From positions 1 to 58,245 of IMG/VR virus record IMGVR_UViG_3300022868_000022: 58,245 nt of DNA. The stretch is one strand, 5' to 3'. The notes below the pieces were generated by a model. It had not been told where the DNA came from, ran no database searches, and was given only the letters and a program-made list of their open reading frames with translations. The position numbers were made by a program, and so were the translations under genes. Below are positions 1 through 19,009 of this stretch, one piece after another. Origin of the DNA: a virus (lineage: Duplodnaviria; Caudoviricetes). Positions within the stretch are counted from its first letter, which is position 1, and every line of letters begins with the position of its first letter.

Positions 1-690
1 TGTTGTTCCGCTAGTACCTGTTGTACCACTTGTACCACTAGTTCCTGTAGTACCGCTTGATCCGCTAGTACCGCTTGTACCATCTGTCCCTGAAGTACCA
101 CTTGTTCCACTTGTTCCTGTTGTACCACTTGTTCCACTAGTACCTGTTGTACCACTTGTACCATCTGTCCCTGATGAACCGTTAGTACCGCTTGTACCAT
201 CTGTTCCTGAAGTACCAGATGTACCACTTGTTCCTGTTGTTCCGCTAGTACCTGTTGTACCACTTGTACCGCTTGAGCCGTCAGTACCGCTTGAGCCGTT
301 AGTACCACTTGAGCCATCTGTCCCTGAAGTACCGCTTGAACCACTTGTTCCACTAGTACCTGTTGTACCACTTGTTCCGGCAGTACCAGATGTACCACTT
401 GAACCGCTTGGCCCTTGTCTTATTATATCAACTTTATCATATGTTATGTCACTAACAACAATATCAAATAATTGTGATGTACTATAATCAGTATTATCAA
501 CATAGAATTGAAATAGTCCATAACTATCTGATTGTATCTGTGGAGCTACTTCAATAGCAATACCACCAGTATATGATGTATATACTTTAGCAGCATCAGT
601 AGTTCCTGTTAAATATATGGTTACATCAATACCAGATTTAATGTTGCCATATGAGTCTCTTGAGCGTCCATTAAAGCTATATCTACTCAT
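1..690 (-). CDS. Collagen-like (G-X-Y, mostly G-T-S/G-S-S/G-T-D) fibre protein with N-terminal virion-attachment domain; runs off the window edge
   Basis: Not in ORF track. Manual translation from ATG at 690: MSRYSFNGRSRDSYGNIKSGIDVTIYLTGTTDAAKVY...RQGPSGSSGTSGTAGTSGTTGTSG..., Gly every third residue from ~414 to 1. Confidence 0.85.
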   Translation of the reverse strand, partial: MSRYSFNGRSRDSYGNIKSGIDVTIYLTGTTDAAKVYTSYTGGIAIEVAPQIQSDSYGLFQFYVDNTDYSTSQLFDIVVSDITYDKVDIIRQGPSGSSGTSGTAGTSGTTGTSGTSGSSGTSGTDGSSGTNGSSGTDGSSGTSGTTGTSGTTGTSGTSGTSGTDGTSGTNGSSGTDGTSGTTGTSGTSGTTGTSGTSGTSGTDGTSGTSGSSGTTGTSGTSGTTGTSGTT

Positions 691-723
691 ATATTATCCC
701 GATTTTATTAAATATATTTTTCA

Positions 724-876
724 TTAGAAAATGTCACCTACCGTAAATGTTTCAATCCAATCCAATAATATCTTATATAAAGGATGGTCAGTATTATATG
801 TTCTTAATTCAAAATTTAAGATATCTGATGTATTATCAAAATTTAAGATATCTGATGTATTATCAAAATTTGGCAT
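724..876 (-). CDS. Small hypothetical protein (50 aa) with a 27-nt internal tandem duplication
   Basis: MPNFDNTSDILNFDNTSDILNFELRTY...; ATG overlaps the stop of the upstream gene; repeat copies 811-837 and 838-864. Confidence 0.55.
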   Translation of the reverse strand: MPNFDNTSDILNFDNTSDILNFELRTYNTDHPLYKILLDWIETFTVGDIF

Positions 877-1166
877 TATAATTCTTCCACATTTAATTTA
901 GTTTTATGATAATAGGTATAACTATCTTTGACTATACGCCACACTATCTCATATTCATCCACAGTAGCCGTAACTTCCGTATTAACTAAAGCATAAATTT
1001 TATTTTCAGTAACTAAGCAATCAGCTTCAGCTTTAACTGTTGTACCATCACTATCTACAACACTAAAATATGCTCCTGAAGGATCAAAATCATCATCATC
1101 CTGATCTCTTATAGTAATTTCAACTGCTCGAATTTCACCCTGATAAAATGTTATATATGTTTTCAA
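876..1166 (-). CDS. Small beta-sandwich virion protein (BppU N-terminal-like)
   Basis: FYQGE...ITIRD...Y.IVW pattern; acidic; next to fibre gene. Confidence 0.5.
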   Translation of the reverse strand: MKTYITFYQGEIRAVEITIRDQDDDDFDPSGAYFSVVDSDGTTVKAEADCLVTENKIYALVNTEVTATVDEYEIVWRIVKDSYTYYHKTKLNVEEL

Positions 1167-1190
1167 ATATTATACCTTCTATAAAGTTAT

Positions 1191-1709
1191 TTATACTTTT
1201 CCGCCAAAAATATCTTTAAGACTACCAAATAGACCTCTTTTTTTAACCTTTTTATATTTACTAGCAAGTCCTCTAAGAGCTTGTTTAGAAAAGTCTTTAT
1301 GAAAACTACCTACAACAGCTTTCTCTAAATCATCAAATGGCACTTCTTTAAGATTTTTTATGTAATATGTAGGGCTATAAAAATATCTTCTTACAGCAAT
1401 ATCCATAAAAGGATAATAAGTTTTAACAATACGCCATGTAAGCTTCATATCACCTTTAGTACGTTTAAGTACCTTTACCCATTCTTTTACAAACCTTTTT
1501 CTTTGAGATCTGGGAAGGTAATTAAGATTCACGCCCTGACAAAAACGCCACTGGCGACCTGTTTTTGGATGCGTGCCACTAAAACTATACATATGAAAAT
1601 ATAATGGTATTGGATCATTTTCCCATGCAGAATATCTGAAGACATACACATGACCTGACTTTAGAGTGACACCCTTTATTCTTTTTTTATATAGTACTCT
1701 TAATGCCAT
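1191..1709 (-). CDS. gp2: DNA end protector protein (T4 gp2-like)
   Basis: GHVYVFRY...DPIPL...GVNLNYLP...R..F...AVRRY motifs; adjacent to gp4. Confidence 0.8.
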   Translation of the reverse strand: MALRVLYKKRIKGVTLKSGHVYVFRYSAWENDPIPLYFHMYSFSGTHPKTGRQWRFCQGVNLNYLPRSQRKRFVKEWVKVLKRTKGDMKLTWRIVKTYYPFMDIAVRRYFYSPTYYIKNLKEVPFDDLEKAVVGSFHKDFSKQALRGLASKYKKVKKRGLFGSLKDIFGGKV

Positions 1710-1788
1710 AATATTTTTCGCTACCTTTTATATTACCATTTACCATCTTTTATATATTTTGTGATATATTTTTCTAACAATTCTTTTT

Positions 1789-2250
1789 TCATTTATATAA
1801 CTCTTTCTCTGTTATAATCTTAAATATGAATCCACGCTTTCTACAAAAATCTGCAGCTGCTTTCCATTTAGCATTATTTGTTGCATATATTGCATTTTCA
1901 GATATTATAGTTTTTTGCTTCTTATTCTTACTACCTTTAGGGGCCATTACTTGATTATATGGCTTTACTTCAACAATATAAATTTTATCATCATCATTTT
2001 TATCACGAACTTTTATCATAAAGTCAGGGAAATATCTCCTTTGCTTTCGTTTTACTGGATCGTAATAAGGAATAATAACATCCTCTGAATTCCATTTAAT
2101 AATGCTTGAATTATTATCACACCATTGGCAAAAAGTTCGTTCCCACGATGATCTTGCTATTAAAGGATATGACCCAACATATTTATCTTTATTTATAGGA
2201 TTATATATTGTATGCTTTTTTGGATTAAACTGGGTTTTCATAAAGTTCAT
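1789..2250 (-). CDS. gp4: Head completion nuclease (T4 gp4, TnsA-like)
   Basis: N.DKY.G...RSSWE..F..WCD.N..I.KW.SE...IPY..P...RRYFPDF...EVKP..Q...N.AKW.AA...F.IITEKEL. Confidence 0.93.
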   Translation of the reverse strand: MNFMKTQFNPKKHTIYNPINKDKYVGSYPLIARSSWERTFCQWCDNNSSIIKWNSEDVIIPYYDPVKRKQRRYFPDFMIKVRDKNDDDKIYIVEVKPYNQVMAPKGSKNKKQKTIISENAIYATNNAKWKAAADFCRKRGFIFKIITEKELYK

Positions 2251-2366
2251 ATAATTTCTCTTTTGATATAGAACATTTAGATCTTTTTATATTATTTTTT
2301 ATAGCTGTTATCATTTCAAGATTATATATACTACTCATAATTTCAATTGGTATATTATAAGACATA

Positions 2367-2633
2367 TTAATAATTTAGCATTGAAGCATCTCTTAATCTT
2401 TCATATAAACCTTTTGATATAGATATTATTTTTTTACTGTTTTGGTCTTTTTTTTGCATATCATCAAGTTTTTTAATAGCTATTTTCAAATCTTTCATTT
2501 CACCATCAATTAATTTTCTAATTCTTTTATATTTAACAGATAAATCATTATTATCATCTTCACTTATACCAACATTGCTTAAGCTTCCTTTGTCTAAATT
2601 ATATCCTTCAAGTCTATTATATTCTTGTGCCAT
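2367..2633 (-). CDS. Hypothetical protein, leader paralogue of 2643..2888
   Basis: Identical first 22 aa MAQEYNRLEGYNLDKGSLSNVG. Confidence 0.75.
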   Translation of the reverse strand: MAQEYNRLEGYNLDKGSLSNVGISEDDNNDLSVKYKRIRKLIDGEMKDLKIAIKKLDDMQKKDQNSKKIISISKGLYERLRDASMLNY

Positions 2634-2642
2634 AATTACTCC

Positions 2643-2888
2643 TTATATTTTTTTAATTAAACTATCTATAACCCTTTTAACATTACTTAATATTTTTTTT
2701 CCTAATTTTATATTGTCACTATTAATAGCTGTTTCAGCACTTTTAGTATATCCTGTTATTGTATTAAAAAGACTGTTAATTTCAGCTTGATATCCAGGCA
2801 ATCCAGTATTTTCTTCATTAACACCTACATTACTTAAGCTTCCTTTGTCTAAATTATATCCTTCAAGTCTATTATATTCTTGTGCCAT
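2643..2888 (-). CDS. Hypothetical protein, leader paralogue of 2367..2633
   Basis: Identical first 22 aa; AGGAG RBS; late promoter upstream. Confidence 0.75.
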   Translation of the reverse strand: MAQEYNRLEGYNLDKGSLSNVGVNEENTGLPGYQAEINSLFNTITGYTKSAETAINSDNIKLGKKILSNVKRVIDSLIKKI

Positions 2889-2918
2889 AATTGCTCCTTA
2901 TAAAATTATTATCATTAG

Positions 2919-2926
2919 TATTTATA
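2919..2926 (-). promoter_or_regulatory. T4-type late promoter TATAAATA
   Basis: Exact consensus in the intergenic gap upstream of 2888. Confidence 0.65.
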
Positions 2927-2945
2927 ATTATTTATGATATTTTTG

Positions 2946-3251
2946 TTAAATTATTTTTATTAAACTGGATTTATCGAAAAAATCTTTGTGGGTGTTGTAC
3001 CATTTGTTAAGTTTAGGAAGGTATAATTTGCTTATTTTATCGAAGGTTTCATCTTCTTTAATTTCTTCTGTATCTGTATGCATATCAAATGCTAAAATTA
3101 TATTAAGAATATTATTTCTTTGTTGTTCTGTTAATGTTTCTGGATCAAATGATACTATAAGATCAACAATTTTTTTAAAAATCTTTTTGTCAAATCCTAC
3201 CTTAGTGCCTGGTGGTATGCCATATTCTGTTATATAATTTTTAAATCTCAT
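2946..3251 (-). CDS. Putative internal head protein (capsid-targeting leader)
   Basis: Starts MRFKNYITE. Confidence 0.65.
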   Translation of the reverse strand: MRFKNYITEYGIPPGTKVGFDKKIFKKIVDLIVSFDPETLTEQQRNNILNIILAFDMHTDTEEIKEDETFDKISKLYLPKLNKWYNTHKDFFDKSSLIKII

Positions 3252-3272
3252 AATTACCTGATATACTTATAT

Positions 3273-3662
3273 TTAATGGTACTTTACGATTTTCCGACCC
3301 GTAGCAGTTTTCCCAGATTTAGCCATTCTATTTGTCATTCTTGACCGTTGCTTACCTGCAGCACTTCTTTTAAATCTGGATTTCTTTCTTTTTATAGCTG
3401 ATTTATGAGTTCTGTAATATCGTTTAGTCTGCATTCGTTTTTGTGACTTGGTTCTTTGAGCTAGTCTAATCTCATGCATATCAATATCATCAAAATCAAG
3501 CTCATCATATATAGATTCAAGCATCATACGTTGTTCATCTGACATCATATCTTCTTGCTCATTAGTCAAAGATATTAAGAAATCAGCCATCTTACTAAAT
3601 GTCTCATCGTCATAGTCTTCATCACCATCAATATAATTGTCAATTTGTTCTAATATGCTCAT
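3273..3662 (-). CDS. Acidic-N/basic-C putative prohead core or DNA-binding head protein
   Basis: D/E-rich first half, K/R-rich second half after MHE (possible protease site). Confidence 0.5.
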   Translation of the reverse strand: MSILEQIDNYIDGDEDYDDETFSKMADFLISLTNEQEDMMSDEQRMMLESIYDELDFDDIDMHEIRLAQRTKSQKRMQTKRYYRTHKSAIKRKKSRFKRSAAGKQRSRMTNRMAKSGKTATGRKIVKYH

Positions 3663-3664
3663 AG

Positions 3665-4030
3665 TTAATCCTTTATACCAGCTTCTTCTTCCATCTTTTT
3701 AAGTCTAGTATAGTAATCTTTTATTTCTGCCAAATGGTCTTTAGCTATACGCTCAGCAATAACAGGGCTTGAAGTATGCTCTTTTTCAATATCTATACCT
3801 AAACTCAATTCATTGTCATCATATGTTCCTTTAAAGTCTTTAGACCTACCTGATCCAAAGAATGAACCTAATAATTTATATATTACTTCTTCAAATTTAT
3901 GCTTATTTATCCCTAATTCATCAGCTAGATTATGAATTTCATCATCTTTTGGATTAGAATTTTTTAAGAAAAATTCTATTATATCGGCTGTAACATCCTT
4001 TTCTTCATTCAAATACTCATAAAATTTCAT
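3665..4030 (-). CDS. DUF5661-like protein with capsid-targeting leader
   Basis: MKFYEYLNE; GIDIEKEHT...A.RIAKDHL.E..DYYTRLKKME. Confidence 0.7.
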   Translation of the reverse strand: MKFYEYLNEEKDVTADIIEFFLKNSNPKDDEIHNLADELGINKHKFEEVIYKLLGSFFGSGRSKDFKGTYDDNELSLGIDIEKEHTSSPVIAERIAKDHLAEIKDYYTRLKKMEEEAGIKD

Positions 4031-7271: not shown

Positions 7272-7639
7272 ATGCGATTTAAACAATATATAACAGAACA
7301 GATGGTGTCATTATTTAATGTAAAAGTTGCTGGTGATATTAAAAAAAAGACTTATTAAAAAATATTAAAGCTCCTTTTGTAAATGTTAAGATTTCTACAT
7401 TGGGTGGTGATGATAGGACTTCTATAATATTAAATTTATCTCTTGATGATAAAAAAGATTGGCCAAATGGTATATTACAAAATTCAAGATATGCAATGTT
7501 TCATATTAATGCTGATGGTGTAATAGAACAGTTTACTAAATCATTTTCAATAAAAAAGAAATTTAGAAAATCAAAATTTAAGAATATATCAGATATAACT
7601 AAAAAAATTAATAAATATTTACAAACTATAAAAGGATAA
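7272..7639 (+). pseudogene. Leader-bearing gene interrupted by a -1 frameshift at an A8 tract (7341-7348)
   Basis: MRFKQYITE...DIKKKTY* (stop 7356-7358); the -1 frame continues KKDLLKNIKAPFVNVKISTLGGDDR... to 7639. Confidence 0.7.
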
Positions 7640-9621: not shown

Positions 9622-11052
9622 ATGAATATAATAGAAAAATTAGAACAGTATAGTACTGATAAACTTGATGAATCAGGTATAAGAAACATGAAAAAATGGG
9701 CAAAGACTTTTAATAAAGCTGTATGCTATTATCATCAAGATACTGATGGTGTTACATCTGCAATATGCATGAAAGCTTACTTAGAACAGTATAAAATAAA
9801 GACTGTAGATTGTCATATGATACAATATGGAGGTTTAGAATTTGCAGTACAAGCACCACAAAAGGGTATGCTAGTTTATGCGGTTGATTTTGCTCATGCT
9901 AAACCTATATTTCAAATATGGACCGATCATCATGATTCTGAACATATAGGAGCAACAAAAGATATGTCAGTATCTTTTATTAAATCACCAGCTAATGTAT
10001 CACATATATCAATGACTATATCACCTAGAGATATATTTCCATCAAGAGATATACAAATTATATCAACAGTTGATTCAGCCGATTTTGCATCACAAGATTT
10101 AACTCCTGATGATATTATGAGAGCAGCATTTAAAGTAGATAAAAAAATATCAATAGAGAAAAATCATAAAGCAATGGGTCTTGTTGTTAATAAATTGCTT
10201 CTTTCTTATAAAAATAAAAAAGGATTTCTTGATAAATTAGTAATGACAGCTAAACCATCTCTTATATCAATATATACTACAATAGTCAATTTAGCTAAAA
10301 AAGAGGGGTACAATCCTCCTGAAGAAATAGAAAGAAATCAAGCAGCATATAACGCACAACAAAAAGGAAAATCAAAAGTAGGCAAATTAAGCGATATAAA
10401 GAATATTAAATGTGGTGAGTCTATTGAAGTAGGTAACACAGTTTGCCAATACGGTGGTGGTGCAATGGGAAAAGGTAAGCAATACGACAGGTATACAGTA
10501 TTTAAAAATCACCCTACAGTGGACTTCCTTTGCATAGGATGGCCTATGGGATTAATTCAAGCTTCTAAAAATCCATTTAAAGGCGGAGATACGCCAGTTC
10601 ATTTAGGTAAACTTGTATTAGGTAAAGTAATGTTGAAATATAAAAGTGCACTATCTAAAGATATTAATTTATCATATCTAAAAAGAACTTATGAATCTGA
10701 TATACTTAAAAAAGGTTTAGTTGGTTCTATAGGATATACATTTGATGACCTTATTAATTCATTTACTAATGATCAAATAAAAGGAATTGATTTAGAGAAG
10801 ACAGGTAAATGGAAGGATATTATAAAAGATATTACTAATAAACAATATAAAGATCTTAGTTTCAAACAAAAGAAAATATTAGATACAATAAGTATTAGTG
10901 CATGGGATATTGTTATGAGTCAGAGCGGTGGCCACAAGGCAATAACTAATGTGACTAATTTAAATTTTCTTGGTAAAGGTTATACAGATATAATGAAAAA
11001 AATTATGACGGATATAGTAACTGAATTACAGAAGTATAAATTAGAGGGTTAA
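9622..11052 (+). CDS. DHH/DHHA1 phosphoesterase
   Basis: HQDTDG.SA, VDFA, TDHH, SGGHKA motifs; leader-like MNIIEKLEQY..KLDE. Confidence 0.82.
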   Translation: MNIIEKLEQYSTDKLDESGIRNMKKWAKTFNKAVCYYHQDTDGVTSAICMKAYLEQYKIKTVDCHMIQYGGLEFAVQAPQKGMLVYAVDFAHAKPIFQIWTDHHDSEHIGATKDMSVSFIKSPANVSHISMTISPRDIFPSRDIQIISTVDSADFASQDLTPDDIMRAAFKVDKKISIEKNHKAMGLVVNKLLLSYKNKKGFLDKLVMTAKPSLISIYTTIVNLAKKEGYNPPEEIERNQAAYNAQQKGKSKVGKLSDIKNIKCGESIEVGNTVCQYGGGAMGKGKQYDRYTVFKNHPTVDFLCIGWPMGLIQASKNPFKGGDTPVHLGKLVLGKVMLKYKSALSKDINLSYLKRTYESDILKKGLVGSIGYTFDDLINSFTNDQIKGIDLEKTGKWKDIIKDITNKQYKDLSFKQKKILDTISISAWDIVMSQSGGHKAITNVTNLNFLGKGYTDIMKKIMTDIVTELQKYKLEG

Positions 11053-11055
11053 TTA

Positions 11056-11063
11056 TATAAATA
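11056..11063 (+). promoter_or_regulatory. T4-type late promoter TATAAATA
   Basis: Exact consensus, intergenic. Confidence 0.65.
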
Positions 11064-11079
11064 TAATAAGAGGTGATAA

Positions 11080-11379
11080 ATGAGATTTAAAAAATATATA
11101 AATGAAAGTTCTTCAACAGTATATACTGAAAAGGTTAAGAAAAGTGATCTATCAAACGCTGATTGGAAAAAATTAGATAAATATGGTAACTTTGATGAAT
11201 CACTTCCATTTTTGATTAAGATACTTAAAAAGAAAGGATATACATATAAAGGTAAAACACCTGGTAAATATAGTTCAGAGTATTGGACAAAAAAAGGAGA
11301 GAAGTGGAGAAATACTGGTGATTTTGAATTATATGATGGTGGTTTTATAGATATGGAATTAATATTAATGCATAATTGA
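11080..11379 (+). CDS. Putative internal head protein
   Basis: MRFKKYINE; GAGGTG RBS. Confidence 0.65.
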   Translation: MRFKKYINESSSTVYTEKVKKSDLSNADWKKLDKYGNFDESLPFLIKILKKKGYTYKGKTPGKYSSEYWTKKGEKWRNTGDFELYDGGFIDMELILMHN

Positions 11380-11398
11380 TAAATTAATGGAGAATAAT

Positions 11399-11593
11399 AT
11401 GAACATAACAGATAAGATAACAGACTATTTGAATGAAAATAAAATTGATGATTTTGTTAATAAATTTAAAAATAAAATGGGCAAAGATACCACAGAACAA
11501 ACAGCAAAAGGTTGGGTTGATGGTATAGGTGAATTAAGTAAATCAGATAAAAAGAAATTATTAGGTAAAATTTTAAATTATATAGAGGCTTAA
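11399..11593 (+). CDS. Putative internal head protein
   Basis: Start after GGAG gives MNITDKITDYLNE. Confidence 0.6.
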   Translation: MNITDKITDYLNENKIDDFVNKFKNKMGKDTTEQTAKGWVDGIGELSKSDKKKLLGKILNYIEA

Positions 11594-11599
11594 TAAAAT

Positions 11600-11815
11600 A
11601 TGAAAATAAAAGAAACTACAAATAAATATTTAACAGAAAAACTAAAAGCAAGAAGTAGTAAATCAAATAAAATAGAAGATAAAGTTTATGATATGCTGTC
11701 TGGATCAGATTTTGAGAGATGGTATCCAAAAGATTATATAGACCATATAGAAGGAGCTCCTAAAGCTAAATCAAGAGATGATATCATCTCTGATATTAAA
11801 ACTATGTTGAGATAA
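11600..11815 (+). CDS. Putative internal head protein
   Basis: MKIKETTNKYLTE. Confidence 0.6.
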   Translation: MKIKETTNKYLTEKLKARSSKSNKIEDKVYDMLSGSDFERWYPKDYIDHIEGAPKAKSRDDIISDIKTMLR

Positions 11816-11820
11816 AAATA

Positions 11821-12282
11821 ATGAGATTTAAAAAACTAATAGAAGCTACTATAACTAAAGGATATCCAGATACAGGTGGTATAGCAAGTGATGATGACTA
11901 TCCACCAGGAAATATTATTATTGGTCCTAAATATAAAAAGATTTATGTAGAACAGCCAAAAACAGGTGTTAAAATTGTTAAATATATTGAAGTTGATGAT
12001 TTTATGTGGGATGAATTTGATGGATGTGTTGGTATGCATAGAATGTCTAATTATGACAAGACTTTATTAACAATGATTCCTGTATATGGTGATAGAATGT
12101 TTAAGCATATGAGATGGACTGATACTAAAGGATTTGATACCGATCCTGAAAATATAGCACGAAAAAAAATTAGTCATGTTGATCAAAGAAGGGGTTTTGG
12201 TAGAAATGATGTAAATAAAAAAGAATACAAGACTACAAAAGCTAAAGATATAACTGAAATGGTTGATAAATATATAAAATAA
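11821..12282 (+). CDS. Putative internal head protein
   Basis: MRFKKLIE. Confidence 0.6.
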   Translation: MRFKKLIEATITKGYPDTGGIASDDDYPPGNIIIGPKYKKIYVEQPKTGVKIVKYIEVDDFMWDEFDGCVGMHRMSNYDKTLLTMIPVYGDRMFKHMRWTDTKGFDTDPENIARKKISHVDQRRGFGRNDVNKKEYKTTKAKDITEMVDKYIK

Positions 12283-12285
12283 GAA

Positions 12286-12882
12286 ATGGTAATTTATAAA
12301 GTAACAAATAAAATAAATGGCAAATGTTATATTGGTCAAACAATATTAACAATTAATAAAAGAAAATCTGGGCATATTTATAAAAGTTTGAAAAAAAGTG
12401 ATAATTGTTATTTTCATAAAGCTATTAGAAAATATGGTAAAGATAATTTTTTATGGGAAATTATTTGTGAATGTAAAACTAAAAAAGAATTAAATGAAAA
12501 AGAAATTTATTATATAAAACAACAAAAATCATATGTTAAAGAAAATGGTTATAATTTAACTCATGGTGGTGAAGATAATCCAATGAATTATCAAAAATAT
12601 AGAGATAAAATTTCAAAAGCAAATAGTGGTGAATTAAATCCATTTTTTGGTAAAAAACATACACAAAAAACAATAAATAAAATTAAATCTTTTACTCAAA
12701 GTGATAATCATCCATCTATTAAGAAATGGATTTTAAAACATAAAGATGGCAGATCTTTAATTATTGAAAATCTAGAAAAATTTTGTAGAGAAAATAAATA
12801 TTATTCTGGAAATTTTAGAAATGTTAAAAGTGGTAAATATAAACAATATAGAGGATGGTATTTTTGTGATAATGTATCATAA
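12286..12882 (+). mobile_element. Free-standing GIY-YIG homing endonuclease with NUMOD3 motif
   Basis: VIYKVTNKINGKCYIGQT...R...H...AIRKYG..NF...E..YI...GYN...GG; NPFFGKKHT. Confidence 0.9.
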
Positions 12883-12888
12883 GAAACT

Positions 12889-13719
12889 ATGAGACTTGAA
12901 AATTACTTAAATGAAAATAATATAAAAGATTGGACCGGATATATTAATAATAATAAGATGTTAAAATCCGCTGTAAAAGTATTACAGACTATTAATAAGA
13001 AAGGTTTTAAATGTTATATTGTAGGTGGATGTGTTAGAGATATTGTGTTAGGTATTCAGCCACATGATATTGATATATGTACTAATATGCCTATGGATAG
13101 AATAAGTAAATTATATAAAACTCATGATATAGGCAAATCAAAACAGTTTGGCATAGTCGTTATTAAGCAAGGGTCTTATAATTTTGAGATTGCGCAATTT
13201 CGCCAAGACGGCACATACAAAGATGGTAGACGACCTGATACTGTAAAAATATCAAGCTCTTTTAAAGATGATGCTAAAAGGAGAGATTTTCAAATTAATG
13301 CAATGGCAATTGATAAAGATGGTAATATTATTGATTATTTTAATGGTAAAAAAGATATTAAAAACAAAGTGTTAAAAACTGTAGGTGATCCTAATAAAAG
13401 ATTTGGCGAAGATTATTTAAGGATGTTAAGAGCAGCTCGTTTTTCAGCTAAATTGGATTTTGATATAGAACCAAAAACAAAGAAAGCTATTAAGAAATCT
13501 TCATATCGTATTCAAGATTTATCACCTGAAAGAATTAAAGATGAAATAATGAAAGCAGCATCTCAGTCAGGAGATGTCTTTGCTAAGTACCTAAATACAT
13601 TAGATGAATTGAATTTACTAAAATATATATTTCCAGAAATTATGAACTTAAAATGGTTTAAAGAAAATATGAAACATCATCCTGAAACATCTGGTTATGT
13701 AAGAAGAATTATAGAATGA
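12889..13719 (+). CDS. cca: CCA-adding enzyme/poly(A) polymerase family nucleotidyltransferase, N-terminal half, with leader
   Basis: VGGCVRD, DIDI, EIAQFR, DAKRRDFQINAMA, RFGEDYLRMLRAARF, SPERI.DE; ends HHPE+10 aa. Confidence 0.9.
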   Translation: MRLENYLNENNIKDWTGYINNNKMLKSAVKVLQTINKKGFKCYIVGGCVRDIVLGIQPHDIDICTNMPMDRISKLYKTHDIGKSKQFGIVVIKQGSYNFEIAQFRQDGTYKDGRRPDTVKISSSFKDDAKRRDFQINAMAIDKDGNIIDYFNGKKDIKNKVLKTVGDPNKRFGEDYLRMLRAARFSAKLDFDIEPKTKKAIKKSSYRIQDLSPERIKDEIMKAASQSGDVFAKYLNTLDELNLLKYIFPEIMNLKWFKENMKHHPETSGYVRRIIE

Positions 13720-14468
13720 GATTAATGAACTTTATAAATGAGCAATTAATAGCAGCAAGAAATAAATATGCTGAAGGGAAAAAATTAGGTGAATTAGAAA
13801 AATATGATCGTAATAATCCTGAACATGATGATCCTAAAAAATATTTGTATTTTTCAACAGGAGCTACAGTATATTCACATACCATAGAAGCAATAAAGCA
13901 AGTTAAGATTGATCAGCCATTACAAATGTTAGCTACTGCATTACATGATACAGGTAAAGGTGTTACTCTTAGTGATAAAAAAGGTTTACCTACATATTAT
14001 GGCCATGCTAAAGAGAGTATTGAATTAGTTAATAGCATAGCTGATAGATTAAAAATGAGTAATAAAGAAAGAAATGCTTTGTTGTTTGCTGTAGGCAATC
14101 ATATGAAATTTCATAATATTCTTGGTATGAAAACAAGCAAGATAGTCAAACTTGTTAATGATGATAATTGGGATGTTTTAGTAGCTGTATCTTTCGCAGA
14201 TAGTGCATCAAGAGGTTCTTCATTTATACATGCTGGTGAATTTGAAAAAATAGTTGATAAGTGTATAAAATTAAAAGATAAATACAATATAAAAGAAGTT
14301 AAAAAAAGATTAAAGCTTGTTGATGGTAATCGTGTTATGGAGTTATTAGGATTAAAACCCGGACCTAAAGTTGGCAAAATAATTAAAGAAATATCAGCAT
14401 GGGTTATTGATAATGATATAAAAGATACAAAATTAATAGATGAGAGGATATTAGAATATGAGACTTAA
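13716..14468 (+). CDS. CCA-adding enzyme C-terminal half (HD domain + tail) with its own leader
   Basis: MRLMNFINE; VYSHT, LHDTGKG, YYGHA, NHM, AD, LVDG..VM.LLGLKPGP.VG. Confidence 0.85.
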   Translation: MRLMNFINEQLIAARNKYAEGKKLGELEKYDRNNPEHDDPKKYLYFSTGATVYSHTIEAIKQVKIDQPLQMLATALHDTGKGVTLSDKKGLPTYYGHAKESIELVNSIADRLKMSNKERNALLFAVGNHMKFHNILGMKTSKIVKLVNDDNWDVLVAVSFADSASRGSSFIHAGEFEKIVDKCIKLKDKYNIKEVKKRLKLVDGNRVMELLGLKPGPKVGKIIKEISAWVIDNDIKDTKLIDERILEYET

Positions 14469-15234
14469 ACAATACTTAAATGAAAGTTATACTGCTGAAG
14501 AAGTGGTTGAAATAATTAAAAAAGATTGTCCTAGATCTTATATAGTACAAACTAAAGGAGAATTTTTTTATCGTGGAACTAAAGATTCAATAAATGATAT
14601 CAAAAAATTTAAATCAAGAACTGATAGAATACCAAAAGATACACCTCCTGAATTACATAACATGTTAGATAGTTTGTTTAAAAGGTATCTTGGATGGCAT
14701 GCTAGAAGTGAAGGAACATTCGTTAATGGAAAAAAAGATAATATTAGTGGATATGGTATATCATTTATGTTTTTTCCTATAGGCAAATATGATTTTGTGT
14801 GGTCGCCTAGTATAGAAGATTTATATTCTAAAATAGAACAAAATTATATGTTAGAAGAACCTGAATATTTATTTATAAGTGATTATGATTATGATTATGA
14901 ATATAATGAAGAATCTGGAAATGGAAAATATGAATATGAAGGTATATTATATAATAATATCAATGATATAGAAGATACTAAAAATATAACAGGTAATAAT
15001 ATAGAAAATGATGCTGTATGGATACCTAACATGACATTTGAAGAATATAGAGAAAAATCTATAGATGATTATGAAAACAATAGAGATACTTATTTACATG
15101 ACTTAATTAAAACATATAGTAAAACAAATCTTAATAAAGCAATGAAATCAGGACATGAAGTTATGTTTAGATGTAAAGAATACTATATGGTTGATGCAAA
15201 ATTCAGTAAAATTTTAAGAAAGGAATTATGGTAA
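14458..15234 (+). CDS. Leader-bearing protein, possible ADP-ribosyltransferase fold; paralogue of 16020..16679
   Basis: MRLKQYLNE; FFYRG, DR.P.DT, ARSEG.F, FFP, WS..I.DLY, GHEVMF. Confidence 0.55.
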   Translation: MRLKQYLNESYTAEEVVEIIKKDCPRSYIVQTKGEFFYRGTKDSINDIKKFKSRTDRIPKDTPPELHNMLDSLFKRYLGWHARSEGTFVNGKKDNISGYGISFMFFPIGKYDFVWSPSIEDLYSKIEQNYMLEEPEYLFISDYDYDYEYNEESGNGKYEYEGILYNNINDIEDTKNITGNNIENDAVWIPNMTFEEYREKSIDDYENNRDTYLHDLIKTYSKTNLNKAMKSGHEVMFRCKEYYMVDAKFSKILRKELW

Positions 15235-15243
15235 AGGATAAAT

Positions 15244-16023
15244 ATGAAAGGTTATTATTATTATAAGGCGTTAAGAAAGACTATTATACAATTTTTGGAT
15301 ATCTTTAATGACATTTATGTTGCAAGATATGATGCAGACGGTGTTCTTATTAAGACTTTTAAAGTCCCTCTTAAATTTGCTCCAAAAGAAAAAGTTTACT
15401 ATTATATTTTTGAGAATAATAAGAGAGAAGAAATGTTGCCTATAATGGCTGTAGATATTGCTTCTATTGATTTTGCTGAGGATAGGTTAGTTAATAAACA
15501 TAAAAGAATATCAGTGTCTAAAGATACAACAACAAGTTTAATGTCGTCATATTTAACACCTATACCTTATAACATAACATTCAATCTTAACATATGGTCA
15601 TTATATATTATTGATATTGATCAGATATATGAGCAAATACTACCATTCTTTACACCATATATTTTTATAAGAGTGTATATACCTGAATTGGATTCAACAT
15701 TTGATATAAAGGTTATATTACAAGGAAGCTCATCTGAGTCAACATTAGAGATGGGTGAGGAAGATGAAAGAATTATAAAATGGAATTCTTCATTTGTAGT
15801 TCAAACATACTTATTTAAACCATTATCAGATGTTGGTATAGTTAAAAAGGTATTTCCAAGATTGTTTACTAGTAAAACTGGATTTGGGAATAGAAATACC
15901 GAATCAATTTTTACATCAGGTGCAGCACCATCTGCTGCAGCGGAATCAATGTTTCTTGAAGGAACTGGCTATGATGCTGATGCTGCAATACTATATGATT
16001 ATGAGGTATTTCCTAAACAATGA
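15244..16023 (+). CDS. gp15: Tail sheath stabiliser/terminator (T4 gp15)
   Basis: YYY..LRK.I..F..IFNDI...KVPLKFAPKEK...PIPYN..F.L...QI.EQILPFF.P. Confidence 0.9.
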   Translation: MKGYYYYKALRKTIIQFLDIFNDIYVARYDADGVLIKTFKVPLKFAPKEKVYYYIFENNKREEMLPIMAVDIASIDFAEDRLVNKHKRISVSKDTTTSLMSSYLTPIPYNITFNLNIWSLYIIDIDQIYEQILPFFTPYIFIRVYIPELDSTFDIKVILQGSSSESTLEMGEEDERIIKWNSSFVVQTYLFKPLSDVGIVKKVFPRLFTSKTGFGNRNTESIFTSGAAPSAAAESMFLEGTGYDADAAILYDYEVFPKQ

Positions 16024-16679
16024 GACTTAAACGATATTTAAAAGAAGATGGTAATATTGACAGTATAATAGATAATCTTAAAAAAGATTGTAAGCCATTT
16101 CTTGATCAAGTTAAGAATTCATTCTTTTATAGAGGATATAAAGGTGATTTTGTTAAAGATATTAAGAAAGTTAAATCTAGAATAGATAGACGACCATCTG
16201 ATACTATAATTGATGTGCATAATACGTTAGATGATCTGTTCAAAAAAAAATTTGGATGGAAAGCAAGAAGTGAAGGAGTATTTGCTACAGGAAGTGAATA
16301 TCAAGCTTGTCAATATGGCATATCATATTTATTTTTCCCTATAGCAAAATTTAATTTTATATGGTCACTTGATATTATTGATTTATATATAAAAATAAGT
16401 AAAGATAATTTTAATGGTGCATACTCTGTTACAAGAGGTGAATATAAATATGATAAAGATAAAAAAGAATTTATAACATTTGAAGAATGGAAGCAAGAAA
16501 AATTTGAAGAGCATAATAAAAAGCAAGAAGAATTTTTTAACAAACTTGCTAAATTATATAGTAAAACAAATCTTAATAAAGCAATGAAATCAGGACATGA
16601 AGTTATGTTTAAATGTAAAGAATATTATTTAGTGAATACTAGTTTAAAAAAATATTTATTAAAGGAATTATGGAAATAA
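16020..16679 (+). CDS. Leader-bearing protein, possible ADP-ribosyltransferase fold; paralogue of 14458..15234
   Basis: MRLKRYLKE; FFYRG, FATGS, GHEVMF; 56-nt identical block shared with paralogue. Confidence 0.55.
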   Translation: MRLKRYLKEDGNIDSIIDNLKKDCKPFLDQVKNSFFYRGYKGDFVKDIKKVKSRIDRRPSDTIIDVHNTLDDLFKKKFGWKARSEGVFATGSEYQACQYGISYLFFPIAKFNFIWSLDIIDLYIKISKDNFNGAYSVTRGEYKYDKDKKEFITFEEWKQEKFEEHNKKQEEFFNKLAKLYSKTNLNKAMKSGHEVMFKCKEYYLVNTSLKKYLLKELWK

Positions 16680-17275: not shown

Positions 17276-19009
17276 ATGGGATTTTATTTAAGTCCAATAG
17301 TAGATATTAATGAGGTTGATTTAAGCACAACAATACCTGCTGTTGCTACATCTATTGGTGTGATTATATTAAGAGGGACATATAAAGGCCCTGAAAGAAA
17401 AACAACATTGATAACAAATATTGATGATTTAATCACTACTTTTGGTAAGCCAACAAGTACAGCGGATTGTTATAGAGATATTTTATCAGCTGCAGGATTT
17501 TTAAAATATGGTAATAAATTATATTGTACTCGGTCAATGGCCGCAGGTGCAACATTTTCAGGTACTAAAGCAACAAGTGGTGCATCAGCAACATTTGTCC
17601 CATATACGGTAGATAATGCTTATAAATTAACAGATTTTAATAGTGAAGATCCTGATGAATTTGCTGATGAAGTAGCACCATCTGGAACAGACCCAATGTG
17701 GTTTATAGCTAATTCAAGAGGAACAAATGGTAATAATGTAAGAATAGCTGTAGTTGATTATACTACTTATACAGCAATGATACAAGAAGGTACGCATAGT
17801 GATTGGGCAACATATTCAGATATTGTAAGTATTGATAGCCCAATGGATGATACTACTGATTTTCTTGTTGTTGTATCAGCAAAAGATCAAGGTGAAACTA
17901 CATGGACAGTAAAAGAATCATGGAATGTATCAACAGATGAAGATAAAACAGATGATGAGGGTGTTAAAAAGTTTGCTGAAACCGTAATAAATGGTAGATC
18001 AAAATATATTGAAATAGCTCTTAATCCATTACAAGTTGATAATACAATAACATTAAGTACTGAAGATTATCAACAATTTGGTGGTGGTCAAATAGATGAT
18101 GCTGTAACTCCTTTAGGTATAACAGATGCTATTATAATGACTGACTTAGATTTATATTCAAATGCTGAAGATATTGATGTTAATATTTTTATAGATTCTG
18201 ATAAATCAACTACTATAAAACAGTATATAACAACTATATGTGGTACTACTAGAAAAGATTGTATAGGTATTTTAGATTGTTTATACGCTGATGTTGTAAA
18301 TAATAGTGGTAGTGAAGCAACTGATCTTAGATTATTTAGAAACACTACTTTAAATGAAAATGATAGCTATGTAAGTCTATATGGTAATTGGCTTAATGTT
18401 TATGATAAATGGAATGGTAGATATAGATGGGTGCCAGTATCAGGATATGTTGGTGGTATTTTTGCTAATACAGATGATGTAACCGATCCTTGGTTTGCAC
18501 CAGCAGGTCTTAATAGAGCCTTATTAACAAGTGTTAGAAAACTTGCATGGAATCCAACATTAGGTGAGAGGGATATACTTTATAAGAATGGTATTAATCC
18601 TATTGTAAGTTTTTCTGGACAAGGTAAAGTCGTGTGGGGCCAAAAAACATTATTAGATAAAAGTTCAGCTTTTAATAGAATTAATGTAAGAAGATTGTTC
18701 TTGGTTCTTGAAAAGGCTATAAGTACTGCTAGTAAATACTTCTTATTTGAACCAAATGATAATCTTACACGTTTGCTATTAATGAATATGATAGATCCAT
18801 TTTTGAGAGATGTAAGAAGTCGTAGAGGGGTTTATGAATATCTGGTAGTATGTGATGAAACTAATAATACAGGAGAACGTATAGATAGAAATGAATTATG
18901 GTGTGATATTTATATTAAACCAACTCGTGCGGCAGAATTTATTGTACTTAATTTTATAGCAACAAAGACTGGCGTATCATTTACTGAAATACAAAGTGGT
19001 TCTGCTTAG
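17276..19009 (+). CDS. gp18: Tail sheath protein (T4 gp18)
   Basis: LSP.V.I.EVD, FGKP, PWFAPAGLNR, RD.LY..GINP, WGQKT, RINVRRLF, LFEPND, IKPTRAAEFI.LNF. Confidence 0.97.
   Translation: MGFYLSPIVDINEVDLSTTIPAVATSIGVIILRGTYKGPERKTTLITNIDDLITTFGKPTSTADCYRDILSAAGFLKYGNKLYCTRSMAAGATFSGTKATSGASATFVPYTVDNAYKLTDFNSEDPDEFADEVAPSGTDPMWFIANSRGTNGNNVRIAVVDYTTYTAMIQEGTHSDWATYSDIVSIDSPMDDTTDFLVVVSAKDQGETTWTVKESWNVSTDEDKTDDEGVKKFAETVINGRSKYIEIALNPLQVDNTITLSTEDYQQFGGGQIDDAVTPLGITDAIIMTDLDLYSNAEDIDVNIFIDSDKSTTIKQYITTICGTTRKDCIGILDCLYADVVNNSGSEATDLRLFRNTTLNENDSYVSLYGNWLNVYDKWNGRYRWVPVSGYVGGIFANTDDVTDPWFAPAGLNRALLTSVRKLAWNPTLGERDILYKNGINPIVSFSGQGKVVWGQKTLLDKSSAFNRINVRRLFLVLEKAISTASKYFLFEPNDNLTRLLLMNMIDPFLRDVRSRRGVYEYLVVCDETNNTGERIDRNELWCDIYIKPTRAAEFIVLNFIATKTGVSFTEIQSGSA

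What the first reader, a model, noticed from the sequence alone, without database searches (positions are those of the whole stretch)
12889..14468. CCA-adding enzyme split inside the HD-domain entry motif, with a capsid leader on each half
Known: in HD-type class II CCA enzymes (e.g. E. coli WHPEIDTGIHT...HDLGKG) HPE and HT are about 5 residues apart. Seen: ORF1 ends HHPE-TSGYVRRIIE*. ORF2 starts at an ATGA overlap with MRLMNFINE and reaches VYSHT about 50 aa later. The second leader argues for a selected split, not a sequencing frameshift. Inference: a two-chain tRNA-repair enzyme whose halves are packaged separately (e.g. for ejection size limits) and reassemble in the host. The split differs from the known CC-adding/A-adding pairs.
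Basis: partly seen in the sequence, partly recalled or inferred. Interest (0 to 1): 0.82.

Follow-up and report, generated by a model that had tools for sequence, protein, structure and literature searches.

The report
Phage CCA enzyme split by cassette
An uncultured T4-like phage makes its tRNA CCA-repair enzyme as two proteins because a mobile gene-splitting cassette, here without its endonuclease gene, sits at the entry to the HD domain and supplies a stop, a new start with a head-loading-like tag, and two short conserved peptides that probably hold the halves together.

Summary
ORF1 (12889-13719) ends HHPE-TSGYVRRIIE*. ORF2 (13716-14468) starts at an ATGA overlap with MRLMNFINE and reaches VYSHT at residues 52-56. 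Contigs from four other runs bridge the junction unchanged, so this is not a sequencing error.

The split is not a private invention of this phage. About 160 nt (c. 13696-13856) are absent from unsplit relatives. They encode a tail on piece 1 (YVRRIIE-stop) and a start, leader and adaptor (KLGxxExYxxxNxxHxDPxKY) on piece 2. The same peptide pair recurs in many phage cca genes:
- with a homing-endonuclease-like gene (at least three kinds) between the pieces in most loci where that interval is seen;
- at a second break point in the catalytic loop;
- twice in one three-piece enzyme;
- as a continuous insertion in three single-chain proteins.

Two near-identical contigs differ by a 1090-nt cassette with flanking co-conversion-like tracts, and the second leader lies inside that cassette. 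Split status is scattered over the gene tree (AU p 3.7e-7).

A complex model supports binding (ipSAE 0.77, best control 0.00). The closest precedent is the Aeh1 nrdA/mobE tails. The packaging role of the leaders is untested. The "ejection size" rationale is unsupported, because most relatives are leader-bearing single chains. This scan has already reported the same cassette on other genomes.

The parts
12286..12882 (+). Free-standing GIY-YIG/NUMOD3 homing-endonuclease-like gene, ending 6 nt before ORF1
   Evidence: Pfam NUMOD3 36.6 bits and GIY-YIG 34.1 bits. It is 35-48% identical (best BLASTP segments) to the GIY-YIG genes that lie between the two cca pieces in L015, L024, L051 and L062.
12889..13719 (+). 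cca piece 1 (276 aa): nucleotidyltransferase head plus RNA-binding neck
   Evidence: The family-invariant columns of alignment A2 (G46 G47 R50 D51, D60 D62, R131 R132 D133, E174 D175 R178; window numbering) are all held by the window's protein, the first row.
12889..12915 (+). Leader 1, MRLENYLNE
   Evidence: M1, Y6 and E9 are at least 90% conserved in A2, including the unsplit homologues.
13675..13686 (+). HHPE motif, the last host-gene residues shared with unsplit relatives (followed by TSG)
   Evidence: Alignments.
13696..13719 (+). Cassette-encoded C-terminal tail YVRRIIE plus stop codon
   Evidence: Absent from unsplit relatives. The same tail, GYVRKI[LI]x*, ends 5 of 5 other split N pieces of the clade. 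G[A]xV[RQ]KII ends the two distant ones, L047 and L048.
13716..14468 (+). cca piece 2 (250 aa): leader, adaptor, HD phosphohydrolase domain and C-terminal tRNA_NucTran2_2 domain
   Evidence: AF2 gives pLDDT above 90 over most of residues 60-250.
13716..13742 (+). Leader 2, MRLMNFINE
   Evidence: Leader-like starts occur on 14 of 31 distinct C pieces at this site. The leader lies inside the 1090-nt cassette that distinguishes L050 from L055.
13743..13784 (+). Linker QLIAARNKYAEGKK; the part NKYAEGKK is shared with one adaptor subtype
   Evidence: rows P0003, P0007, P0009, P0026, L024, L057, L058, L062.
13785..13844 (+). Adaptor core LGELEKYDRNNPEHDDPKKY
   Evidence: L24 G25 E28 Y30 N34 H37 D39 P40 K42 Y43 are invariant in 16 of 16 C pieces. 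Identical residues are often encoded by different codons (7 of 12 against L047). Residues 22-30, 37 and 41-57 lie in the modelled interface.
13869..13883 (+). VYSHT, with the first HD-domain histidine (H55), where homology to unsplit relatives resumes
13944..13949 (+). HD dyad (H77 D78)
   Evidence: Invariant in A1 and A3.

Best explanation
The window holds an endonuclease-less copy of a mobile 'fracture cassette' inserted in a phage class II CCA-adding/HD enzyme gene, at the loop between the HHPE motif and the first HD helix.

Shown:
- The cassette gives piece 1 a short basic tail and a stop (YVRRIIE*).
- It gives piece 2 a start codon, a leader, and a conserved acidic, proline-rich adaptor (KLGxxExYxxxNxxHxDPxKY).
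- In most relatives where the interval between the pieces is seen, a homing-endonuclease-like gene lies there, and the whole unit is gained or lost by recombination between related phages.

Inferred:
- The two pieces are translated separately, by coupled termination-initiation at ATGA.
- They reassemble through the native neck/HD interface, helped by the tail-adaptor pair. The resulting two-chain enzyme adds CCA and heals 2',3'-cyclic or 3'-phosphate tRNA ends. This parallels phage Aeh1's NrdA-a/NrdA-b, which depends on the tails that came with mobE.
- In this lineage each piece carries an N-terminal leader resembling the T4 capsid targeting sequence. If the leader works that way, both pieces would be loaded into the prohead and clipped after Glu9.
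For: Real split:
- Searches show the two ORFs.
- Contigs of 4 of 4 other runs bridge the junction unchanged.

Insertion relative to relatives:
- 10 of 10 loci are continuous at this point.
- 31 of the 37 loci are continuous here, 5 are split and 1 is undetermined.

The tails are conserved and coding:
- There are 10 invariant adaptor residues in 16 of 16 C pieces.
- The GYVRKI[LI] tail is on 5 of 5 other N pieces of the clade.
- 7 of the 12 residues shared with GC-rich L047 use other codons.

Endonuclease-like ORFs lie between the pieces:
- GIY-YIG: L015 (= L054 and L056), L024, L051, L062.
- DUF7487: L050, L058, L059 by Pfam or BLASTP; L057's cut ORF has the same C-terminal motif by eye only.
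- A third group of ORFs that match one another: NUMOD3-bearing L048 with L061 (46% identical, no Pfam hit of its own), and L052 (= L060), which shares their C-terminal part and has a marginal DUF559 hit.

Portability:
- The same pair is used at a second site in the head domain. 13 representative proteins of 388-417 aa start with the adaptor there.
- L050 uses the pair twice, giving a three-piece enzyme.

Mobility:
- L050 and L055 are 100% identical over 993 nt on the left and 568 nt on the right.
- Mismatches are confined to the 35 nt and 84 nt next to a 1090-nt insertion that replaces 16 nt.
- Split status needs at least 11 changes on the C-domain tree. Monophyly of the 16 split rows is rejected, with delta lnL 323.6 and p-AU 3.7e-7.

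Assembly:
- ipSAE is 0.77, 0.76 and 0.77, and the best of 3 controls is 0.00. That mark was reached by 58 of 80 solved complexes and 2 of 110 mismatched pairs.
- The runs agree in at least 92% of contacts, and partner pLDDT is 81.
- The interface includes ORF1 268-276 (the tail) and ORF2 22-30, 37 and 41-57 (the adaptor).

No splicing element:
- There are 0 Rfam hits at gathering score in the window and 9 loci.
- There are no Hint/intein families on either ORF.

Precedent: Crona et al. 2010 (PMC3045599; abstract and discussion read).

Leader:
- 13 observed against 0.25 expected.
- A T4 gp21-type protease (PF03420) is found over cut-off in 2 of 4 related long contigs.
- The properties of the T4 CTS come from passages of PMC9026906 and PMC3012670.
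Against: - No endonuclease gene lies between the pieces in the window, so here the cassette origin rests on homology of the tails.
- The complex pass may be memory of single-chain CCA/HD enzymes. My own alignments were used and they included unsplit homologues, so the calibration holds only roughly.
- AF2 gives no confident fold for the adaptor alone (ORF2 residues 1-50, pLDDT 35-65).
- AF2 also gives none for the continuous tail-adaptor insertion of the single-chain protein P0185 (residues 58-116, pLDDT 45-69). The physical form of the 'clasp' is therefore unknown.
- Charge complementarity is modest here: tail pI 8.7, adaptor core pI 5.0.
- In the Aeh1 case the tails were not needed for the two pieces to bind each other, only for the next assembly step. 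'Clasp' may therefore be the wrong picture.
- Each piece keeps a complete set of its own catalytic residues, so independent function is not excluded.
- 17 of 31 C pieces at this site, and all site-2 pieces, lack a leader.
- The window itself holds no prohead protease gene (searches cover only part of it).
- There is no proteomic evidence.
Confidence: 0.7

Rival explanations
1. Gene fission into two independent enzymes. Piece 1 works alone as a minimal nucleotidyltransferase and piece 2 alone as an HD phosphohydrolase. The conserved tails serve folding or solubility of each piece, or expression of the cassette, not reassembly.
For: - The break lies at a domain boundary. The head and neck Pfam domains are wholly in ORF1, and the HD and C-terminal domains wholly in ORF2.
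- Each piece keeps its own invariant catalytic residues.
- The adaptor is not confidently folded in AF2 models.
- In Aeh1 the tails were not needed for the pieces to bind.
Against: - The same cassette also cuts inside the catalytic head domain (site 2), where the pieces cannot plausibly act alone, and it uses the same peptide pair.
- The complex model gives a large interface: 173-193 contacts, of which 146-149 are confident.
- In class II CCA enzymes the C-terminal part binds tRNA (established knowledge, not tested here).
Confidence: 0.15
2. The two ORFs are joined again, at the RNA level (intron, ribosomal bypass or frameshift) or at the protein level (trans-splicing by an unrecognised split intein), giving one chain.
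For: - Endonuclease genes inside coding sequence usually ride in introns or inteins.
- The arrangement resembles the 'fractured genes' of Dassa et al. 2009 (PMC2677866, passages).
- ORF2's frame is open for 10 codons upstream of its ATG.
Against: - There are 0 Rfam matches at gathering score in the window and 9 loci.
- The inserted stretch is conserved as protein with synonymous change, not as RNA.
- Here it is only about 160 nt.
- The tail is 7-8 residues, against roughly 100 for an N-intein. No conserved Cys/Ser/Thr lies at either junction, and there is no Hint family.
- Piece 2 has its own start and, mostly, its own leader.
- Three natural single-chain proteins keep tail and adaptor as an unexcised insertion.
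Confidence: 0.05
3. The split is a decaying pseudogene or a sequencing or assembly frameshift.
For: - Most relatives are unsplit.
- One listed homologue (P0134) does look like a plain frameshift, ending GEGGTVFRMML.
Against: - The junction is identical in contigs of 4 of 4 other runs.
- No catalytic residue is lost.
- The inserted peptides are the most conserved part of piece 2.
- The same architecture recurs at 42-65% identity and in GC-rich distant phages.
Confidence: 0.02

Closest known systems
Aeromonas phage Aeh1 nrdA-a / mobE / nrdA-b 'genes in pieces' with insertion-derived tails (Crona et al. 2010, PMC3045599, abstract and discussion read; Friedrich et al. 2007 known only through citations in PMC2677866 and PMC3045599)
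   Same: - A conserved enzyme gene is cut into two adjacent co-oriented genes by a free-standing homing endonuclease insertion.
- The insertion contributes a basic C-terminal tail on piece 1 and an acidic N-terminal tail on piece 2.
- There is no RNA or protein splicing.
- The authors predicted that such tails could be a general remedy.
   Different: - The host gene is a tRNA nucleotidyltransferase/HD enzyme.
- The tail pair is a conserved family that sequence search can find. It is reused at two break points and twice in one enzyme, and it is associated with at least three kinds of endonuclease-like gene.
- In the window the endonuclease gene is gone from between the pieces, which overlap at ATGA.
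- Piece 2 also receives a leader.
- No biochemistry exists for this system.
'Fractured genes' with split inteins and a free-standing endonuclease gene (Dassa et al. 2009, PMC2677866, passages read)
   Same: - Pieces stay in the original order and locus.
- GIY-YIG or Vsr-like endonuclease genes lie between them.
- The end of the endonuclease gene overlaps the start of the downstream piece.
- The sources are phage-like environmental sequences.
   Different: - There are no intein halves.
- The flanking peptides are far too short (about 8 and about 25-45 residues) and have no junction nucleophiles.
- Rejoining, if any, would be non-covalent.
Phage T4 capsid targeting sequence on internal proteins IPI-III (passages of PMC9026906 and PMC3012670)
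   Same: - An N-terminal peptide of about 10 residues sits on otherwise unrelated proteins.
- It has hydrophobic positions followed by x-Glu, where the gp21 protease cuts.
- The phage is T4-like, and a gp21-type protease is present in relatives.
   Different: - The leader is nine residues, M[RK][LF]xx[YF][LI]xE.
- It is carried by at least 13 ORFs in 58 kb, including enzymes.
- No packaging or cleavage data exist.
- Here one leader is delivered by a mobile cassette.
CC-adding / A-adding enzyme pairs of some bacteria
   Same: CCA synthesis is shared between two polypeptides.
   Different: Those are two full-length paralogues, each with its own head domain. Here one enzyme is cut between domains, and ORF2 has no nucleotidyltransferase head.

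Membership tests
Class II tRNA nucleotidyltransferase (CCA-adding) with C-terminal HD domain | PolyA_pol head domain and RNA-binding neck | tested here: met
   ORF1 has PF01743 (E 4.4e-35) and PF12627 (E 3.9e-14). The head matches solved CCA-adding enzymes, for example 6ibp at E 5.6e-47, using the unsplit homologue P0059 as query.
Class II tRNA nucleotidyltransferase (CCA-adding) with C-terminal HD domain | HD phosphohydrolase domain (H...HD...H...H...D) | tested here: inconclusive
   Pfam HD gives 17.9 bits, below the 22-bit cut-off. However, H55, H77, D78, H97, H129 and D162 are invariant across 16 C pieces, and many homologues carry PF01966 in the precomputed column.
Class II tRNA nucleotidyltransferase (CCA-adding) with C-terminal HD domain | CCA addition and 2',3'-cyclic phosphodiesterase activity | not testable with these tools
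   Needs enzyme assays.
Endonuclease-fragmented gene with insertion-derived tails (Aeh1 nrdA type) | One ancestral gene present as two adjacent co-oriented ORFs, with unsplit orthologues in relatives | tested here: met
Endonuclease-fragmented gene with insertion-derived tails (Aeh1 nrdA type) | Free-standing homing endonuclease gene between the pieces | tested here: not met
   In the window the pieces overlap at ATGA, and a GIY-YIG gene lies upstream of piece 1 instead. The feature is met in relatives L015, L024, L048, L050, L051, L052, L058, L059, L061 and L062, and probably in L057, whose ORF is cut.
Endonuclease-fragmented gene with insertion-derived tails (Aeh1 nrdA type) | Tail sequences at the break that unsplit homologues lack | tested here: met
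Endonuclease-fragmented gene with insertion-derived tails (Aeh1 nrdA type) | Tails required for assembly or activity | not testable with these tools
   Only a model is available. ipSAE is 0.77 against a best control of 0.00, with tail and adaptor in the interface.
Split-intein 'fractured gene' | N- and C-intein halves (HINT fold) with junction nucleophiles | tested here: not met
   There is no Hint/intein Pfam family at E<=0.01 on either ORF. The tail is 7-8 residues, and there is no conserved Cys/Ser/Thr at the junctions.
Self-splicing intron carrying an endonuclease gene | Ribozyme core detectable by covariance model | tested here: not met
   There are 0 matches at gathering score in the window and 9 related loci, 100,760 bases in all. 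The insert is conserved as protein. A novel ribozyme class cannot be excluded.
T4-type capsid targeting sequence | Short N-terminal peptide shared by unrelated proteins, ending in hydrophobic-x-Glu | tested here: met
   13 ORFs carry it, against 0.25 expected by chance. This includes both cca pieces.
T4-type capsid targeting sequence | Cleavage by a gp21-type prohead protease and presence in the capsid | not testable with these tools
   PF03420 protease is found over cut-off in 2 of 4 related long contigs. None is seen in this 58-kb fragment, which is estimated at 24% of the genome.

The most novel reading that the evidence does not exclude
The tail-adaptor pair is a self-contained, transferable heterodimerisation module, a non-splicing functional analogue of an intein. 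Homing endonuclease genes carry it with them, and it lets them settle inside coding sequence at more than one site without killing the host gene. In phages that load many enzymes into the capsid, the cassette has also picked up a capsid-targeting leader, so each fragment is loaded on its own.
Probability: 0.4. Interest if true: 0.8.

Novelty: new variant of a known kind. Interest (0 to 1): 0.6.

Why it matters
Endonuclease genes are known to survive inside essential genes by riding in introns or inteins. A third remedy is tails brought by the insertion that let the fragments reassemble. It rests on a single experimental case (Aeh1 NrdA), whose authors expected such tails to be hard to find by similarity.

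Here a tail pair is conserved enough to be searched for. It is reused at two break points and twice in one enzyme, it occurs with or without the endonuclease gene, and it is caught in a recent gain or loss between near-identical phages. That makes the 'portable clasp' idea directly testable with recombinant proteins. It could also yield a small natural tag pair for split-protein assembly.

The finding adds a tRNA-repair enzyme to the list of fragmented phage genes. It also shows that a mobile element can deliver a putative capsid-loading leader.

Tried and rejected
- Sequencing error or pseudogene: rejected.
- Group I or other known intron: 0 Rfam hits at gathering score.
- Intein: no Hint family, and the tails are too short.
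- Frameshift or bypass fusion: ORF2 lies in the -1 frame and is open for 10 codons upstream of its ATG. I saw no canonical slippery heptamer by eye in 13686-13716. Relatives with 750-900 nt between the pieces cannot use such a route.
- 'Tail and adaptor are only vestigial duplicates of the local HHPE / first-HD-helix sequence': I held this reading. I dropped it when the same pair turned up at the head-domain site.
- Fused proteins longer than 438 aa carrying the extension: the word-based search found none (weak evidence). The profile search later found three.
- Adaptor on other host genes: 15 of 15 profile hits (E<=0.001 among 1.84 billion representatives) are CCA/HD proteins. 13 of 13 metagenome pattern hits lie in cca genes.
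- Cultured phages with the cassette: none among the records looked at. GAP31, TH18, phiM7 and MT835498 are unsplit.
- Structure of the adaptor: AF2 of ORF2 alone and of the single-chain P0185 gave low confidence there.
- No fold search was run.
- RNA evidence: no RNA holder was listed among the 24 runs, so expression could not be examined.
- Late promoter motif TATAAATA (recalled): within 10500-16500 it occurs only at 11056 and 16443, so neither piece has its own copy.
- Papers: two searches and passages of two of the three papers returned gave no description of a split phage cca gene.
- Supplementary files were not requested.
- Alignment A5 misaligned the head pieces and was not used.
Full report
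THE OBSERVATION. The window is a 58,245-bp viral contig fragment with 27% G+C. CheckV estimates it at 24% of a genome. It comes from a T4-like myovirus: gp15 at 15244-16023, tail sheath at 17276-19009, and baseplate genes further on.
- ORF1 (12889-13719, 276 aa) ends ...KHHPETSGYVRRIIE*.
- ORF2 (13716-14468, 250 aa) starts at an ATGA overlap with MRLMNFINE and reaches VYSHT at residues 52-56.
- ORF1 holds the nucleotidyltransferase head and the RNA-binding neck.
- ORF2 holds a weakly scoring HD domain and the tRNA_NucTran2_2 domain.
- A GIY-YIG/NUMOD3 endonuclease-like gene (12286-12882) ends 6 nt before ORF1.

IS IT AN ERROR? No.
- 24 public runs hold 13300-14100.
- Contigs from 4 of 4 runs laid, none flagged as a possible source, bridge the stop/start at 13716-13719 with no difference.
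- All are salt-lake metagenomes of 2017-2018, so they may belong to one campaign.
- The exact ORF1 protein is recorded from 14 contigs.

WHAT RELATIVES SHOW.
- Ten viral loci at 54-65% identity all read through the junction as one ORF of 469-478 aa where complete...HHPETRGxGGTV[YFW]SH... or ...HHPEGGVFQHT....
- Of the 120 best ORF1 homologues listed (4755 at E<=1e-40), 114 have unsplit length.
- Relative to these, the window carries about 160 extra nucleotides (c. 13696-13856). They encode YVRRIIE-stop and then Met-leader-linker-LGELEKYDRNNPEHDDPKKY-LYFS.

A search with ORF2 also found stand-alone C pieces of 229-264 aa at 42-65% identity with the same extension.
- Ten of its residues are invariant in 16 of 16 (L24 G25 E28 Y30 N34 H37 D39 P40 K42 Y43).
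- Five other stand-alone N pieces of the clade all end HHPE[TG]xGYVRKI[LI]x*.
- Two distant phages, one of them GC-rich, end WHPEGARVQKII... and WHPEGAMVRKII..., and restart with the same adaptor.
- The adaptor is conserved as protein. Against L047, 12 of 20 residues are identical and 7 of those use another codon.

ENDONUCLEASE GENES AND MOBILITY. In most relatives where the interval between the pieces is seen, an endonuclease-like gene lies there:
- GIY-YIG in L015 (= L054 and L056), L024, L051 and L062.
- A DUF7487 family in L050, L058 and L059 by Pfam or BLASTP. L057's cut ORF has the same C-terminal motif by eye only.
- A third group of ORFs that match one another. It comprises NUMOD3-bearing L048 with L061 (46% identical, no Pfam hit of its own), and L052 (= L060), which shares their C-terminal part and has a marginal DUF559 hit.
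- A proline-rich ORF of no known family in L047.

The window's upstream GIY-YIG gene is 35-48% identical (best BLASTP segments) to those lying between pieces.

The clearest evidence comes from two contigs.
- L055 is unsplit at this site. L050 carries a 1090-nt block here in place of 16 nt. The block holds tail, stop, DUF7487 gene, start, leader MKKLEKYLIE and adaptor.
- The flanks are 100% identical over 993 nt on the left and 568 nt on the right.
- All 11 left-hand mismatches lie in the last 35 nt and all 23 right-hand mismatches in the first 84 nt next to the block.
- That is the pattern expected of a recent gain (or loss) by recombination with a diverged donor, with co-conversion of the flanks. 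It also shows that the second leader is part of the cassette.

A tree of the C-terminal domain excluded the adaptor columns. It used 20 rows split at this site and 45 of 131 rows unsplit at this site.
- It needs 15 changes of state, and starred branches force at least 6.
- Starred split/unsplit sister pairs include P0070/L015, P0133/P0003 and L045/L024.
- After dropping six long rows, monophyly of the 16 split rows against 43 is rejected, with delta lnL 323.6 and p-AU 3.7e-7.

A PORTABLE PAIR. The same two peptides occur at a second break point, in the flexible loop of the head domain...FRGETYQKIKGVRKILN* followed by MKLGPLEPYNPNNPEHNDPKKYKIEY-ENTGRKPE... (L050, L053, L055).
- Thirteen representative proteins of 388-417 aa start with the adaptor at that site. 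They include P0027, which is L038-L040.
- L050 is cut at both sites, giving a three-piece enzyme of 117 aa, 192 aa and a C piece. P0180 is an independent middle piece.
- A profile of the adaptor alone, run against 1.84 billion representatives, found 15 proteins at E<=0.001. All are CCA/HD proteins.
- Three of those are single chains in which tail and adaptor form one continuous insertion (P0183, P0185, P0191). In P0185 the former start Met is still visible.

The peptides are therefore not relics of the local sequence. They are a module that goes with the break.

HOW IT PROBABLY WORKS.
- Shown: two ORFs; conserved, coding tails; cassette mobility.
- Inferred: separate translation (coupled at ATGA) and non-covalent reassembly.
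- A complex model scored ipSAE 0.77, 0.76 and 0.77, against 0.00 for the best of three controls. That mark was reached by 58 of 80 solved complexes and 2 of 110 mismatched pairs.
- The runs agree in at least 92% of contacts, and partner pLDDT is 81.
- The interface covers ORF1 213-259 and 268-276 (the whole tail) and ORF2 22-30, 37, 41-57 (the adaptor) and 60-114.

Caveats:
- My own alignments, with unsplit homologues in them, were used.
- The pass may reflect likeness to single-chain enzymes.
- AF2 gives no confident fold for the adaptor alone or within P0185.
- No known intron and no intein family is present.

The tail is basic (pI 8.7; 10.0 for GYVRKILA) and the adaptor core acidic (pI 5.0). 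This echoes the Aeh1 NrdA tails, with pI 10.4 and 3.8. Those tails originated with the mobE insertion and are essential for activity, though not for the first heterodimer (PMC3045599).

THE LEADERS. Thirteen ORFs in the window start M[RK][LF]xx[YF][LI]xE, against 0.25 expected.
- Every unsplit cca homologue examined has the leader.
- Two of four related long contigs encode a T4 gp21-type protease over cut-off. In one of them, leader-bearing small ORFs lie beside it.
- In T4, the first 10 residues of IPIII suffice for capsid loading, and processing depends on residues 8 and 10 (PMC9026906 passages; PMC3012670).
- The resemblance is good, but nothing here measures packaging.
- A leader-like start is on 14 of 31 distinct C pieces at this site. 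Where the N piece has a leader and the C piece is seen, 6 of 7 loci or contig pairs have it; the exception is L062. It is on none of the site-2 pieces.

The leader on piece 2 is therefore common but optional, and a leaderless piece might ride in with its partner.

WHAT IS KNOWN. The closest precedent is Aeh1 nrdA-a/mobE/nrdA-b. The locus layout also matches the 'fractured genes' of Dassa et al. (PMC2677866), but without inteins. I found no paper on a split phage cca gene.

Earlier notes of this scan already describe the same clasp cassette on other genomes, including the second break point and three-piece enzymes. I reached these points before reading the notes, and they are AI notes, not independent evidence.

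What this window adds:
- a copy at the HD-entry site with no endonuclease gene between the pieces;
- a homologous GIY-YIG gene just upstream;
- a leader on both pieces.

VERDICT. This is a new variant of a known kind. Interest 0.6.

Noticed in passing
L050 (oriented) 1355-4018; L055 2759-4348: A three-piece cca gene: 117 aa, then 192 aa, then a DUF7487 endonuclease-like gene, then the C piece. It uses the same tail/adaptor pair twice. Its near-identical relative L055 lacks the second break.
   Followed up: yes
P0183, P0185, P0191: Single-chain CCA/HD proteins that keep tail plus adaptor as one continuous insertion of about 40 residues. P0185 still has the former start Met (..YVRRIIREMRLGPLEP..), which suggests re-fusion of a split gene.
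   Followed up: partly
L038 1307-2781: IS200/IS605-like TnpA and TnpB-like ORFs (judged by eye from motifs, not by Pfam) lie just upstream of a site-2 C piece. They sit where other loci carry a homing endonuclease gene.
   Followed up: no
P0014, P0017, P0020, P0021, P0036, P0037: Six proteins of 251-256 aa all begin at the same internal Met (M[KI][KS]A[AGSV]QSG...). One is on a 32-kb contig. These may be truncated gene calls or a third break point in the neck.
   Followed up: no
window 7272-7358: A 28-codon ORF that starts with a perfect leader (MRFKQYITE) and then stops. It is possibly the stub of a broken leader-bearing gene.
   Followed up: no
window 14458-15234 and 16020-16679: Two leader-bearing ORFs (MRLKQYLNE, MRLKRYLKE) with similar N-terminal regions (..KKDC..) flank gp15. 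Homologous ORFs flank the cca gene in L008 and L009.
   Followed up: no
window 11056 and 16443: These are the only two TATAAATA motifs between 10500 and 16500. Genes 11080-16023, including the endonuclease gene and both cca pieces, may form one late transcription unit.
   Followed up: no
L064 (relative G001), about 348-1322, minus strand: Small ORFs with leader-like starts (MNFEKYLTE, ...IEKYLTP...) lie between the gp21-like protease gene and the scaffold-like gene, the position of internal-protein genes in T4-like head clusters.
   Followed up: no
L045 4229-5173: A 314-aa Cys-rich ORF with an HNH-like C-terminal motif (by eye) lies immediately downstream of an unsplit cca gene. This is a further kind of nuclease at the same locus.
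   Followed up: no
window 14442-14447: Contigs of two other runs differ here by four substitutions (E to I near the end of ORF2). This matches the cluster representative P0001 and indicates strain-level variation.
   Followed up: partly
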